Shown here in pieces: positions 42,001 to 45,000 of a DNA stretch of 57,325 nt. The position numbers are program-made. The DNA comes from a phage: NCBI GenBank assembly GCA_025497365.1, contig GCA_025497365.1_4955.1. One strand, written 5' to 3'. Within the stretch, counting starts at the first letter, position 1, and every line of letters begins with the position of its first letter.

Positions 42001-45000
42001 TTCAGTGATTTTGCCAGTGGTGGCATGACTTTTGTCAACGGCGCACCATCTGTACTGACGTAATAACGGGTAATGTTCTGAACCTGTTTATCACCCCATA
42101 GTAATTTGCTGTTACGCGGTACTTTCGTCACTAACATGAAATCGTGAATATCTTCGTGTGATGTTATAAAATCACGAATGTCTTTATTGTGTACCAGTGC
42201 TGCCTCAGCCGCTTTTGCAACAACCTGCATACTGTGGTTTTGATGCCAACCCAGATCAACACTGTGGCAATAAGCACCTTTACGTTTAACCTTCTTACCA
42301 CCTTCATAAACAGCGATGTAGTTATTTACATCGCGGATAAACATCACGTCATAAATCGCTTCTTCAAGCTGGAGTCTGGTTAATTTTTCCCACGCGTGAC
42401 GAACCTGTTCTACTTGTCCGGTAAATACTCGTGGTACGTAAACCGTAAGACCATCTGTGTTAGCCTGAATCATGGATAAACCAGGGATTTTCAGAAGTTC
42501 TTCAGCCAACATACACAAAAGTAACTGTCCGTTAATCGTAATAGCCATTGTATAAGCAGGATCGTAGAACGGGCTGTATACGTTATTACTGTCACCATAC
42601 ACACCGTTTAACGCCAGTTTTAACATTGCGTTTTCTGGTGTACCTTTCGGGTAACTGGAACGCATGTCGTAAACATTTTTATAAATAGTGCAAAATTGTT
42701 TACCCAGATGTGCCGGATAAAGTTCATTACTGATCGCAAGGTTCGGGTAAAAACTGGCAACGTCCAGATCGATGATCACATAATTTTCAGTGGACCTGAT
42801 AGTTTGAGACTCAATAGACCCGTGGATACCACCCGTACCAAAATCAAACGAGAACCCGTTAATGTCTGCGCTTAAATCTGTGAATACACCTTTTGTTTCA
42901 GTGATGACCTGTTGACGTAACCAGTTAAGAACACGATTAAATTCAGGCTGTTCAAAACGGACATAAGGGAAAATCACACTGTTCAATGCGATTGATGGTC
43001 TGTGCGTCTGTCGTGGTTTTCTGCTACCCGGTTCGAAACATTGAATACCTGATTTTTCAAGTTCCATGATGAAATAGTCTTTACCGATTTTCGTGTCATT
43101 ATGGTTCATGAAATTACGACCGTATTTAGCAGAAAGTTCACGACGAAAATCAATCAGCTTTTTACTGTGTTTATAAAACATCAAAGTCGCTTTCAAATCG
43201 TGTATCAGATATTGACGAAGCGTATCAATTTGAGAATCGGTTAAGTAAGCCCCTGGTGTAAACGGGAGGTCTTCAATGTTTTCCATTCTCATATTGAATT
43301 CAAGTGTTTTCAGACTTGTTCGTTTTGCCTGATTGTCGAAATGATGAATTTTATATAAATCAAGCTGGGGGACTATCCAGTCTTTTTCCCACACCATATG
43401 AGCAAAACGATTTTCATCACCATCGTTAATTATCGAATCACCTTTTTTGTAAATGTCTGCGTTGGTGATATACATGATGTTGTTCAAAATAGAATGCTGA
43501 ACAGGATAGTCGTAACCCAGATTGTTATAACCAACTTCTTCAGCACGATGTTCACGCAAATATTCTGTGAACAGGTAAAAAGCCTGACGATCATCGCGAC
43601 GATGTGAAATCTCAAAAATATAAGGTGTTTCAGTTAACGCGTGAATAGCACCGAACAGAAAAACATTAGGATAGTTTTCAATATCGTGAACGTAAGCATC
43701 TGACATAATAAAACCCTGATAAGTAAATGGGGCACTATGGCCCCGTTTTCAGTTATGAACGCTTATTGACCCATTCATTATATAACCGATCACTTTCTTC
43801 TTTTGTAGAAGCGTGTGCAAATCGCCACCCGTAACCGTTTTGCACTTCATACGCGAAATAAAATTTACCAAAATTTTTACGGGAAGTTCTTAAAACGCTA
43901 TTAAATCTTTTTTGAATCACTCCGTGTTTCTTTACGTATGACAATTGGTCTTCTAAAGATAATTTTTCAAACATTTCTTGTTCTTGTACAAATTGTTCTT
44001 GATTCATTTTATACCTCGTTGATAAATGGGGCACTATGGCCCCATGTCTGTTTAAAGCGGTATGTCGTCCCAGTTCCAGTAACTATCAGTAACCGTTACC
44101 GTTGAGAAAATTCGGGGCCGGGGTAGTCATTACCATATAACCGTTAGCGATCAGTTGTTCATCGTTCCAACCTTGCGCAATAAACTGTTCGTAAGTAGCA
44201 CCACCTGCTTTTTCAGTCATTACCTTCACAGGTGCTGCCGCTGGTGTAGGCGCTGCTACAGGTGCTGCCGCTGGTGTAGGCGCTGCTACAGGTGCTGCCG
44301 CTGGTGTAGGCGCTGCTACAGGTGCTGCCGCTGGTGTAGGCGCTGCCGCTGGTGTAGGCGCTGCTACAGGTGCTGCCGCTGGTGTAGGCGCTGCTACAGG
44401 TGCTGCCGCTGGTGTTACGCCGATCGGACGTGCACCTTCAGGCATTGCAGGAGCAGCACCGAACACAGAGGCAGGAGCCGGACCAGAAATGATTTCTTCA
44501 CCCGCATAAAGCAATTGCGCCATTTCCATGTTGATATACACACCAGCCTGATTACCTGTACGACCGTTTGCAACAGATGATCCGCTGATACGATAGTAAT
44601 ACCCTTTTTTCGCCAGATTTTTATCAATAACTGGCTGGTACGCTGCGTTATAAACCGGACACGCATCAATAGCCACGTTGCGTGAGAAACCAATTACCCA
44701 GTGACCAGCATAACCAGTTTTACTCGCATGTTTCGGATCGTCACCGTTAATAATTTTCCATGCGAAAGTGGGTTGTTGTGGTTCACCGTTCACATAGTGT
44801 GAGTTAGCCGCTCGCATGATGGCCTGGAACACCGCACCCAGTTCACCTTGTTCTTCCCACCAGTTCGCCGCTGTTTTAGGAAACGCCAGACCAACCCACC
44901 AGTTATGTTTTTCAGGTGCTAACGGTTTATTTTCGTGGTCATGAGTGTTGATATCGAAAAAAGAACCGCCAACCAGACGACCAACCGGAGTTACAAAAGA

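What the first reader, a model, noticed from the sequence alone, without database searches (positions are those of the whole stretch)
43723..44043. Identical 22-bp stem-loop upstream of two consecutive genes in the replication operon
TAAATGGGGCACTATGGCCCC occurs twice, each about 17-25 nt upstream (in the minus sense) of a gene start, one being the polymerase. A GC stem with a 6-nt loop at identical positions suggests an RNA processing site, translational operator or attenuator.
Basis: seen in the sequence. Interest (0 to 1): 0.42.

Follow-up and report, generated by a model that had tools for sequence, protein, structure and literature searches.

The report
Duplicated terminator hairpin flanking inserted gene
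The two identical stem-loops are two copies of the weak terminator hairpin that normally sits once between a phage's DNA-binding-protein gene and its polymerase gene. It was duplicated when a small foreign gene was inserted there, which is ordinary, but the stretch just upstream turns out to encode a hidden, frame-shifted tail of the DNA-binding protein.

Summary
An exact 21-nt repeat (sense strand GGGGC-CAUAGU-GCCCC-AUUUA) lies at 43724-43744 and 44023-44043, with none expected by chance.

The window is a Sashavirus/9NA-like phage. All 24 related GenBank records, and nearly every related metagenomic contig, have one copy in an 80-nt SSB-polymerase spacer. Two records annotate it as a rho-independent terminator.

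The window and three metagenomic genomes carry a 299-bp insertion: an AT-rich 84-aa ORFan with its own ribosome-binding site, plus a second copy of the hairpin.

In wider relatives (Gorganvirus, Morganella phage Henu15 and others) the same GGGGC/GCCCC stem has different loops and a U5 tract, and directly follows the SSB gene. Where other genes separate SSB from the polymerase, the hairpin stays with SSB and none precedes the polymerase.

Best reading: a leaky intrinsic terminator or attenuator at the SSB 3' end, duplicated as an insertion footprint. It is not a polymerase operator or a processing site.

By-product: the "spacer" upstream of copy A (44087-44052) is coding in the +1 frame (DSYWNWDDIPL*, resembling the bacterial SSB tip DDDIPF). 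It shows a synonymous-substitution signature across seven lineages, which implies an unannotated +1 recoding event at the SSB stop codon.

The parts
44023..44043 (-). Hairpin copy A (GGGGC-CAUAGU-GCCCC-AUUUA; stem extendable to 44026-44045). It lies 8 nt after the +1-frame stop of the SSB tail and 15 nt before the ORF84 ATG.
   Evidence: Exact repeat. Fold -11.5 kcal/mol. Same position as the single hairpin annotated 'terminator' in Sasha and AVIO78A. The homologous stem has a U5 tail in Gorganvirus, Henu15 and Flyfo relatives.
43724..43744 (-). Hairpin copy B (identical 21-mer). It lies 8 nt after the ORF84 stop codon and is followed by the native tail CUUAUC, the polymerase SD (AGGG, 43714-43717) and the polymerase ATG (43706).
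   Evidence: The terminator-like scan flags it (tail ATTTACTTAT). Copy B carries a stem-breaking G>A in L006 and a loop U>C in L074.
43724..44022 (-). 299-bp insertion relative to all single-copy relatives: 15-nt leader with SD GAGG (44014-44017), ORF84, 8 nt, then the second hairpin copy.
   Evidence: All 24 GenBank relatives align across a 182- or 168-bp junction that lacks it. The same insertion is in L006, L074 and L090. ORF84 is 32.5% GC against 43.6% for the genome.
43753..44007 (-). ORF84, an 84-aa ORFan (MNQEQF...NEWVNKRS).
   Evidence: Translation. No Pfam hit. Only one cluster in the 5.8-billion-sequence non-redundant protein database, and four representatives among 1.84 billion. 30-34% identity to small Seuratvirus proteins next to queD. 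Confident model (pLDDT 86.6) with no significant fold match except one viral homologue. About 4 nonsynonymous and 4 synonymous changes among four genomes.
44086..45015 (-). SSB gene in frame 0 (gp2.5/Enc34-like ssDNA-binding and annealing protein), ending ...NFLNGNGY-UGA.
   Evidence: phrog_7011 E 9e-103. PF10991. Translation.
44052..44087 (-). +1-frame extension of SSB: GAU AGU UAC UGG AAC UGG GAC GAC AUA CCG CUU UAA = DSYWNWDDIPL*. It has no start codon of its own.
   Evidence: The conserved tail (N/D/E)WD(D/N)IPL(I/F)* is always in the +1 frame in 9NA-like, L027, L110, L112, L111/L116, Gorganvirus and Henu15 genomes. In the WDDIPL block, 6 of 7 variable columns are synonymous and none falls at a second codon position. 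Within 9NA-like phages the stop is kept as TAA or TGA.
41850..43706 (-). DNA polymerase gene, downstream of copy B.
   Evidence: phrog_1252 E 3e-215. 97% identical to the Sasha polymerase.
46952..46990 (-). Sigma-70-type promoter of the phage-wide family AAAATAATTCTTGACNGATTAC, which drives the minus-strand replication operon. No further copy lies between it and the polymerase.
   Evidence: Motif matches. TTGACA-17-TAAAGT.

Best explanation
The hairpin is the leaky rho-independent terminator (attenuator and 3'-end stabiliser) that closes the SSB coding region in a large clade of phages with the exonuclease-SSB-polymerase module.

It is transcribed as part of the minus-strand replication operon from the promoter at about 46990. 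Some RNA polymerases stop at the G/C stem plus the interrupted U tract (AUUUACUUAU). This would give more SSB message than polymerase message. The rest read through, which they must, because no promoter lies between SSB and the polymerase.

In this phage lineage a 278-nt AT-rich cassette (ribosome-binding site plus the 84-aa ORFan) was inserted just after the hairpin's tail. The 21-nt hairpin is repeated at the far end of the insert. As a result SSB and ORF84 are each followed by a hairpin, and ORF84 and the polymerase are each preceded by one.

Shown: the single-copy ancestral state, the insertion with its direct repeat, the association of the hairpin with the SSB 3' end, the variable loop, and the U tract in relatives.

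Inferred: actual termination efficiency, the direction and mechanism of the insertion (recombination at the hairpin, or a cassette that brought a homologous terminator), and any effect of two hairpins in series on polymerase level.
For: 1. One copy in all 24 GenBank relatives and in all but three of the related IMG/VR and metagenome contigs. Two copies occur only where the 299-bp insert is present.
2. TransTermHP-type annotation as a terminator in the Sasha and AVIO78A records. Copy B is also flagged by the scan here.
3. The stem GGGGC/GCCCC is conserved from Sashavirus to Gorganvirus, Henu15 and Flyfo phages, while the loop varies (UUAAA, UUUAA, UUGAA, UUGGU, UUAGC, CAUAGC, CAUAGU). The tail is UUUUU or UUUCUU in those relatives and AUUUAUUUAU in 9NA.
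4. More distant relatives have unrelated hairpins at the same place: L027 CGCCC-UACG-GGGCG-U5, L072 GGCGGC...GCCGCC-UUUCUUUU, L017 with U6, and G+C-rich L106/L107 with a stable hairpin but no U run.
5. Where genes intervene between SSB and the polymerase, a hairpin follows SSB and none precedes the polymerase in L111, L072, L017 and L021. L012 has none in either place.
6. There is no copy of the phage promoter motif between 46990 and the polymerase, so read-through is required.
7. The hairpin is the weakest terminator-like hairpin in the window (-8.7 to -11.5 kcal/mol, against -13 to -16 with U5-7 for the others). That fits an intra-operon attenuator.
8. The insert is compositionally foreign. 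L111 shows an independent insertion at the same junction, flanked by a 13-nt direct repeat.
Against: - The U tract is poor: 5 of 8 U in copy B and 4 of 8 in copy A. The stem is only 5-7 bp, so termination may be negligible.
- There are no transcript-end data for any phage of this group.
- Within the 9NA-like group the loop and the tail up to the polymerase SD are nearly invariant. That is more than a terminator needs, although low divergence and the adjacent coding tail explain part of it.
- Stem variants are uninformative. L007 has G-U on the sense RNA. Copy B in L006 has A.C on the sense strand, which would be G-U on the antisense strand.
- The origin of the repeat is unresolved, because no donor sequence for ORF84 was found.
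Confidence: 0.65

Rival explanations
1. Translational operator. The hairpin plus the downstream ribosome-binding region is bound by a phage protein, such as the polymerase itself as in T4 gp43, to repress translation of the polymerase. After duplication it would also repress ORF84.
For: The geometry resembles the T4 gene 43 operator: a short hairpin upstream of, and sequence overlapping, the ribosome-binding site (PMC3014915). Within 9NA-like phages the loop and the 20 nt up to the ATG are 94-97% identical, while flanking third codon positions are 64-69% identical. The loop CAUAGU is complementary to the polymerase start region AYUAUG (reading).
Against: No hairpin precedes the polymerase in relatives where another gene lies between SSB and the polymerase (L111, L072, L017, L012, L021). 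The loop sequence differs completely in Gorganvirus, Henu15 and Flyfo relatives that keep the stem. Copy B, the one next to the polymerase, carries a stem-breaking change in L006. Downstream of copy A the sequence and spacing to ORF84 differ. Loop-AUG pairing is lost for ORF84 and weakened by the common loop variant C.
Confidence: 0.07
2. RNA processing or stability element only. The hairpin does not terminate transcription. Instead it blocks 3'-to-5' exonucleases after endonucleolytic cleavage (RNase E in the A/U-rich flank), which uncouples the half-lives of the SSB, ORF84 and polymerase segments.
For: The U tract is weak. A/U-rich single-stranded flanks surround a stable small hairpin. The element sits at an intra-operon position where read-through is required.
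Against: Homologous hairpins in relatives carry canonical U5 tracts typical of true terminators. The stem is far too short for RNase III. Nothing in the sequence specifically indicates a cleavage site. This reading overlaps with, rather than excludes, the terminator reading.
Confidence: 0.12
3. Recombination cassette site. The hairpin works chiefly as a portable homology or landing site for gene cassettes (PeSL-like). The two copies then reflect integration of a hairpin-plus-ORF circle, or repeated exchange at the hairpin.
For: The ORFan is flanked by direct repeats of a regulatory stem-loop, as with PeSL-flanked ORFans and mini-circles in T4-type phages (PMC2839356, PMC4122927). Genomes carrying the insertion are not a clade by their flanks. 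The SSB-polymerase junction holds different inserts in different lineages.
Against: The hairpin exists at one locus only in every genome. No promoter is attached. In L111 the repeat flanking the insert is the ribosome-binding site, not the hairpin. The mosaic distribution is equally explained by ordinary homologous recombination in the flanks, or by precise loss through the 21-nt repeat.
Confidence: 0.08
4. DNA-level element: a cruciform, a replication or priming signal, or a protein-binding palindrome in the replication module.
For: It lies inside the replication gene cluster. The palindrome is identical on both strands at the stem.
Against: Relatives pair the stem with a U/T-rich tail on the sense strand only. 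More distant relatives replace it with unrelated terminators. The short 5-bp stem is unlikely to extrude. No iterons or A/T-rich unwinding region accompany it.
Confidence: 0.03

Closest known systems
Intra-operon rho-independent terminators (attenuators) between highly and weakly expressed phage genes
   Same: G/C stem-loop on the sense strand followed by a U-rich tail, directly after a gene needed in bulk (SSB) and before one needed in small amounts (polymerase). It is already annotated as a terminator in the Sasha and AVIO78A GenBank records.
   Different: In the 9NA/Sasha group the U tract is interrupted and the stem is short. Termination has never been measured. Here the element is present twice.
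PeSL cassettes of T4-type phages (Arbiol et al. 2010, PMC2839356; Comeau et al. 2014, PMC4122927)
   Same: An ORFan that distinguishes close relatives is bracketed by direct repeats of a regulatory stem-loop. This topology is expected from recombination at, or circle integration through, the repeat.
   Different: PeSLs are composite promoter-plus-terminator units dispersed in many copies in hyperplastic regions. This hairpin has no promoter and occurs at one locus only.
Morons (extra genes inserted between adjacent conserved phage genes)
   Same: The gene sits between two genes that are adjacent in all relatives. It has deviant base composition (32.5% against 43.6% GC), its own ribosome-binding site, and a terminator-like hairpin behind it.
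   Different: No promoter of its own was found. It is a lytic-phage replication-operon gene, not a lysogenic conversion gene.
T4/RB69 gene 43 translational operator
   Same: A small hairpin a short distance upstream of a DNA polymerase gene's ribosome-binding site (PMC3014915).
   Different: The hairpin follows SSB rather than the polymerase in relatives. The loop is not conserved. The polymerase family is unrelated (no Pfam or PDB sequence hit). No binding data exist.
prfB (RF2)-type +1 frameshifting at a 'shifty stop', and the bacterial SSB C-terminal tip DDDIPF (PMC5872125)
   Same: This applies to the by-product only. A frame-0 stop codon is followed by a conserved +1-frame extension with no start codon. 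The extension ends in WDDIPL, -PLI or -PLF, resembling the SSB-Ct hexapeptide that recruits partner proteins. Some family members carry ...DDIPF in frame.
   Different: The P-site codons (UAC, UAU, GCA) cannot re-pair in the +1 frame. No conserved Shine-Dalgarno-like stimulator was seen. The Atkins 2016 recoding review lists no SSB case in the part held, and the two records checked for it, Sasha RefSeq and Flyfo, do not annotate it.

Membership tests
Rho-independent (intrinsic) terminator / attenuator | Stable G/C-rich stem-loop on the transcribed strand | tested here: met
   5-7 bp stem, all or mostly G-C; -10.2 and -11.5 kcal/mol, z about -2.1.
Rho-independent (intrinsic) terminator / attenuator | Run of U directly 3' of the stem | tested here: inconclusive
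   Copy B has AUUUACUU (5 of 8 U) and passes the scan. Copy A has AUUUAUCA (4 of 8) and does not pass on the sense strand. 9NA has AUUUAUUU. Homologous hairpins in Gorganvirus, Henu15 and Flyfo relatives have UUUUU.
Rho-independent (intrinsic) terminator / attenuator | Lies just downstream of a coding region on the same strand, with position conserved independently of sequence | tested here: met
   It lies 0-8 nt after the (recoded) end of SSB in all relatives with the +1 tail. Unrelated hairpins sit at the same place in L027, L072, L017 and L106/L107.
Rho-independent (intrinsic) terminator / attenuator | Transcripts end at the U tract in vivo or in vitro | not testable with these tools
   No transcript-end data were found for 9NA-like phages.
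Autogenous translational operator of a phage DNA polymerase (T4 gp43 type) | The hairpin travels with the polymerase 5' UTR | tested here: not met
   No room for, or presence of, a hairpin before the polymerase in L111, L072, L017, L012 or L021.
Autogenous translational operator of a phage DNA polymerase (T4 gp43 type) | Loop nucleotides conserved as recognition determinants | tested here: not met
   Seven different loops sit on the same stem across the clade.
Autogenous translational operator of a phage DNA polymerase (T4 gp43 type) | Specific binding of the polymerase to the RNA, with repression | not testable with these tools
   Needs biochemistry.
PeSL-type mobile regulatory cassette | Composite early promoter plus stem-loop | tested here: not met
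   No promoter-like site or phage promoter motif next to either copy.
PeSL-type mobile regulatory cassette | Many dispersed copies per genome | tested here: not met
   Only the two copies at this locus, even with up to 3 mismatches. Relatives have one copy per genome.
PeSL-type mobile regulatory cassette | Repeats bracket ORFan indels between close relatives | tested here: met
   The 299-bp ORF84 indel is bracketed by the 21-nt repeat.
Moron | Extra gene between genes that are adjacent in relatives, with deviant composition | tested here: met
Moron | Own promoter and terminator | tested here: inconclusive
   A terminator-like hairpin (copy B) is present. No promoter was found.
Programmed +1 ribosomal frameshift (by-product: SSB tail) | Overlapping +1 ORF without its own start codon, directly continuing from the end of frame 0 | tested here: met
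   The +1 window is open for only 27 codons, with no ATG, GTG or TTG (reading). The distance from the frame-0 stop to the W codon changes only by whole codons (1, 2, 4, 5) among lineages.
Programmed +1 ribosomal frameshift (by-product: SSB tail) | Purifying selection on the +1 frame | tested here: met
   WDDIPL block: 7 variable columns, of which 6 are synonymous and none is at a second codon position. The frame-0 and +2 readings contain stops in several lineages.
Programmed +1 ribosomal frameshift (by-product: SSB tail) | Conserved shift site and stimulator | tested here: inconclusive
   The site is always sense codon plus stop plus U/C (UAC UGA U, UAU UGA U, GCA UAA U, GCA UGA U, UAU UAA C). 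P-site codons differ, and no stimulator at fixed spacing was seen.
Programmed +1 ribosomal frameshift (by-product: SSB tail) | Trans-frame protein detected | not testable with these tools
   Needs mass spectrometry or reporters.

The most novel reading that the evidence does not exclude
The 'spacer' next to hairpin copy A is not a spacer. The SSB gene of 9NA-like, Sasha-like, Carvaje-like, Gorganvirus and related phages would be recoded by a +1 shift at its stop codon. A fraction of SSB molecules would then gain an 8-11-residue tail ending in WDDIPL, -PLI or -PLF, a mimic of the bacterial SSB-Ct tip that recruits replication and repair proteins.

The +1 stop lies 0-8 nt from the terminator stem. 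A ribosome finishing the tail would therefore sit on the 5' arm of the hairpin, and could make read-through into ORF84 and the polymerase depend on the frameshift.

The coding signature is shown here. The frameshift mechanism, its efficiency and any link to termination are inferred.
Probability: 0.5. Interest if true: 0.7.

Novelty: new member of a known kind. Interest (0 to 1): 0.33.

Why it matters
The repeated hairpin itself matters little. It is a predicted terminator already present in public annotations, and its duplication records how one ORFan entered a phage replication operon.

It is nonetheless a clean, datable example of a gene cassette inserted at a terminator with a 21-nt direct repeat. 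L111 provides a parallel case (a 13-nt ribosome-binding-site repeat) at the same junction in a different lineage. Together they mark the SSB-polymerase junction as a recurrent insertion point.

The practical lesson for annotation is that "conserved hairpin upstream of gene X" should first be tested as "terminator of gene X-1".

The by-product is more consequential. If the +1-frame WDDIPL tail is made, a whole clade of enterobacterial phages hides the partner-binding tip of its SSB behind a recoding event. That would be a new class of programmed frameshift, and a handle on how these phages tune SSB-partner interactions.

Tried and rejected
- **Rfam:** a scan of the whole window at gathering thresholds found no family.
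- **Donor of ORF84:** blastn and tblastn against phages, the 5.8-billion-sequence protein search and the full HMMER search found only three other genomes with the same insert and about 30%-identical Seuratvirus proteins. Those lie in a tightly packed queuosine operon with no hairpins. No donor was identified.
- **Function of ORF84:** no Pfam hit, only marginal PHROG hits, and no significant PDB fold match. The top hits were dsRBD-like with E of 0.85 or worse, so they were not used.
- **Longer original duplication:** in-register similarity upstream of the two copies is 14 of 32 (empirical p about 0.02). I rejected this because the ORF84 C-terminus NEWVNKRS is native to its protein family.
- **Long-range helix:** RNAalifold proposed CUGAUAG/UUAUCAG enclosing the spacer. 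All pairs are invariant, a 7-bp match is expected by chance at this length, and half of it is now known to be coding. Not adopted.
- **Loop-AUG pseudoknot:** only one-sided changes were seen, and the common loop variant breaks a pair. Not adopted.
- **Promoter in the conserved 40 nt:** no sigma-70-like match and no second copy elsewhere in the genome. The conservation is explained by +1 coding instead.
- **Translational hop:** a UAC-to-UAC hop using the GTTACTG direct repeat works for the 9NA type but not for L027 or the Gorganvirus group. It was rejected as a general mechanism.
- **Other occurrences of the 21-mer:** two unrelated metagenome contigs carry it (L089, L094). By my own rough estimate, which assumes a collection of about 10^12 bases, that is the order expected by chance. 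There were none in 185,579 reference genomes.
- **Strand inference from stem variants:** the two variants point in opposite directions.
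Full report
**1. Observation**

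The 21-mer TAAATGGGGCACTATGGCCCC occurs exactly twice, at 43724-43744 and 44023-44043. It has no relatives within three mismatches and no matches in shuffled sequence.

All genes here are on the minus strand. On that strand each copy reads GGGGC-CAUAGU-GCCCC-AUUUA: a 5-bp G/C stem with a 6-nt loop. Copy A extends to 7 bp. The free energies are -10.2 and -11.5 kcal/mol.

Copy A lies between the SSB gene (44086-45015) and an 84-codon ORF (43753-44007). Copy B lies between that ORF and the DNA polymerase gene (41850-43706). Gene identities rest on PHROG and Pfam matches.

The identical unit is 21 nt, not 22. The stems end 20 and 22 nt before the two ATGs.

**2. What the repeat is**

The window is a Sashavirus/9NA-like siphophage, about 97% identical to Salmonella phage Sasha and Escherichia phage PJ16 over this region.

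All 24 related GenBank records have a single hairpin in an 80-nt SSB-polymerase spacer. They align to the window with a 299-bp gap.

The window therefore carries a 299-bp insertion made of:
- a 15-nt leader with the ribosome-binding site GAGG;
- ORF84;
- 8 nt;
- a second copy of the 21-mer.

Copy A keeps the ancestral left flank, and copy B keeps the ancestral right flank (tail, polymerase SD, ATG).

Only three other genomes carry the same insert: an IMG/VR contig, a Logan assembly and an ENA contig.
- Copy A is unchanged in all of them.
- Copy B has a stem-breaking G>A in one, a loop U>C in another, and is intact in the third.
- The inserts differ by 3-7 substitutions, the same 1-2.5% divergence as the flanks.
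- Two changes in eight hairpin copies is about what neutrality predicts, so identity of the two copies is not being enforced.

The four genomes are not each other's closest relatives in the polymerase or SSB flanks. The insert is therefore distributed mosaically. Either flanking homologous recombination moves it, or it is repeatedly lost by precise deletion through the 21-nt repeat. This phage encodes an exonuclease and an annealing SSB, which would favour such deletion (an inference from what is known of T7-type recombination).

ORF84 is 32.5% GC, against 43.6% for the genome. It has about equal numbers of nonsynonymous and synonymous changes, which means purifying selection. It gives a confident predicted fold (pLDDT 86.6). 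It has no Pfam family, only four relatives among 1.84 billion cluster representatives, and no significant structural match. Its function is unknown.

**3. What the hairpin does**

Three lines of comparative evidence point to a terminator that belongs to the SSB gene.

(a) Public records for Sasha and AVIO78A already annotate the single hairpin as a rho-independent terminator from TransTermHP-type predictions. The scan here flags copy B.

(b) The same stem, GGGGC/GCCCC, directly follows SSB in phages whose SSB is only 41-53% identical: Proteus phages Isfahan and RS10pmA, Morganella phage Henu15, Flyfo podovirus Tbat2_2 and several metagenomic contigs. Their loops differ (UUAAA, UUUAA, UUGAA, UUGGU, UUAGC), and most have a canonical UUUUU tail. 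A conserved stem, a free loop and a U tract are the signature of a terminator, not of a loop-specific protein site.

(c) Still more distant relatives have unrelated hairpins at the same place, most followed by a U run: L027, L072, L017 and L021. The G+C-rich L106/L107 have a stable hairpin without a U run.

Where other genes sit between SSB and the polymerase, a hairpin stays behind SSB and the polymerase has none in front of it. This holds for L111, L072, L017 and L021. L012 has none at either place.

In the window, the only copy of the phage's conserved promoter motif that can serve this operon is at 46969-46990. The polymerase and the genes after it must therefore be transcribed through the hairpins. 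The hairpin is also the weakest terminator-like structure in the genome.

The best-supported mechanism is a leaky terminator or attenuator, which would also act as a 3' stabiliser. It would lower polymerase message relative to SSB message. In this lineage it is present twice because the ORF84 cassette was inserted just behind it.

I put this at 0.65. The main uncertainty is whether the interrupted U tract terminates at all.

**4. Rivals**

- **T4 gp43-like translational operator.** It fails two defining tests: the hairpin does not travel with the polymerase, and its loop is not conserved.
- **Pure processing or stability element.** This cannot be excluded and overlaps with the main explanation.
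- **PeSL-like recombination cassette** (PMC2839356, PMC4122927). It shares the topology of an ORFan bracketed by a repeated stem-loop. It fails on copy number (one locus only) and on the lack of a promoter.

L111 shows an independent insertion (a 150-aa YAcAr-domain gene) at the same junction. It is flanked by a 13-nt repeat of the polymerase ribosome-binding site rather than by the hairpin. The junction, rather than the hairpin itself, seems to be the recurrent insertion point.

**5. An unexpected result next to copy A**

Among 11 distinct single-copy relatives, the 80-nt spacer is 96.8% identical on average. That exceeds the first and second codon positions of the flanking genes (88-92%) and far exceeds third positions (64-69%). 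The 40 nt upstream of the hairpin are 98% identical and occur nowhere else in the genome.

The explanation is that they are coding in the +1 frame. After ...GGU UAC UGA, the +1 frame reads GAU AGU UAC UGG AAC UGG GAC GAC AUA CCG CUU UAA, which is DSYWNWDDIPL-stop. It ends 8 nt before the hairpin (window 44087-44052).

The same layout recurs in other lineages:

| Lineage | +1-frame tail |
|---|---|
| L027 | DITNWDNIPL* |
| L110 and Henu15 | NWDDIPLI* |
| Flyfo Tbat2_2 | DWDDIPLI* |
| L111, L116 and Gorganvirus | NEWDDIPLF* |

One contig, L113, has a 12-nt deletion that removes the tail.

The evidence that this frame is translated:
- In the W-D-D-I-P-L block, 6 of 7 variable columns are synonymous, none falls at a second codon position, and the seventh is D/N.
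- Within 9NA-like phages the four variable sites are N/D, D/N, a synonymous GAC/GAU, and TAA/TGA at the +1 stop.
- The number of codons between the frame-0 stop and the W codon varies (1, 2, 4, 5) but always keeps the +1 frame.
- Frame 0 is the conserved frame up to its stop (...TTPAPGFLxGNG(Q)Y(A)).
- The +1 window has no start codon in 9NA-like phages.
- Some members of the protein family carry ...DDIPF...DDEDDIPF or ...DDVPS in frame.

The tail resembles the bacterial SSB C-terminal hexapeptide DDDIPF, which mediates partner binding (PMC5872125).

The parsimonious reading is a +1 recoding event at the stop codon: sense codon, stop, then U or C. It would append an SSB-Ct-like tip to a fraction of SSB.

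The P-site codons (UAC, UAU, GCA) cannot re-pair in the +1 frame, so the mechanism is unclear. It is closer to the non-slipping Ty3 type than to prfB; the comparison with Ty3 is from my own knowledge.

Neither the Sasha RefSeq record nor the Flyfo record annotates the tail. The part of the 2016 recoding review that is held mentions no SSB case. I could not search the literature exhaustively.

This result also tightens the terminator reading: the hairpin starts 0-8 nt after the true end of the SSB reading frames in every lineage that has the tail.

**6. Verdict**

The thing itself is an ordinary, already-annotated terminator hairpin, duplicated as the footprint of an ORFan insertion. That makes it a new member of a known kind, with low interest on its own.

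The adjacent +1-frame SSB tail is the part worth following up experimentally.

Noticed in passing
window 44052-44087 (-), 8 nt upstream of hairpin copy A; also L027, L110-L116, L119-L121: The annotated SSB-hairpin 'spacer' encodes a conserved +1-frame tail (DSYWNWDDIPL*; in relatives NWDDIPLI*, NEWDDIPLF*) that resembles the bacterial SSB-Ct tip DDDIPF. It has a synonymous-substitution signature, no start codon, and always sits in the +1 register to the SSB stop. This is probably an unannotated programmed +1 recoding event.
   Followed up: partly
window 1524, 3923, 6075, 12111, 14333, 15475, 18444, 26828, 28772, 46969, 47032 (-) and 18756, 51832, 54277 (+): There are 14 copies of a 22-nt promoter family, AAAATAATTCTTGACNGATTAC (an A/T-rich UP-like element plus the -35), with none expected by chance. 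Two 64-nt versions (14294 and 28733) are 98% identical.
   Followed up: partly
window 41811-41849 (polymerase-gp61 spacer): This 39-nt spacer is almost invariant across 9NA-like phages. It contains a degenerate copy of the promoter motif in the inverted orientation (reading GTAAACCGTATAGAATTATTTAAAAC on the sense strand). Its function is unknown.
   Followed up: partly
window 44200-44445 (inside the SSB gene): A tandem array with 30-nt periodicity encodes a Pro/Ala/Thr/Val-rich linker (PAAAPVAAPT repeats). The copy number differs among relatives (SSB 261-331 aa). Sasha annotates it as a direct tandem repeat region.
   Followed up: no
L111 2451-2903 (ENA ERZ28620348 scaffold_177): A different gene (150 aa, YAcAr domain) is inserted at the same SSB-polymerase junction. 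It is flanked by a 13-nt direct repeat of the polymerase ribosome-binding region, TACGAGGTGATTA. L072 has an unrelated 86-aa ORF at the same junction.
   Followed up: partly
window 41850-43706 (-): The 618-aa DNA polymerase matches PHROG 1252 strongly, but it has no Pfam-A hit and no sequence match to any PDB chain.
   Followed up: no
window 11192-11226 and 11891-11925: An exact 35-nt direct repeat, 699 nt apart, lies in the C-terminal coding parts of two small minus-strand ORFs (shared peptide KRLIAAGHTKKR). These look like paralogous small genes.
   Followed up: partly
window 27987-28532: Three copies of a 150-nt repeat (71-77% identical, 189-207 nt apart). They also pair as inverted repeats with 18849-18907.
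   Followed up: no
L094 818-841 (Ga0172380_10266215) and L089 (Ga0209459_10115225): Two unrelated short metagenome contigs contain the hairpin 21-mer; L094 matches 24 nt including CTT. By my own rough estimate, assuming about 10^12 bases in the collection, this is about the number expected by chance.
   Followed up: partly
window 43753-44007 (ORF84 model m23962a570fb9): The best, non-significant PDB fold hits of ORF84 are double-stranded-RNA-binding domains (R2D2/Loqs, ADAR1, PKR; E of 0.85 or worse). This is too weak to use, but curious for a gene flanked by two RNA hairpins.
   Followed up: no
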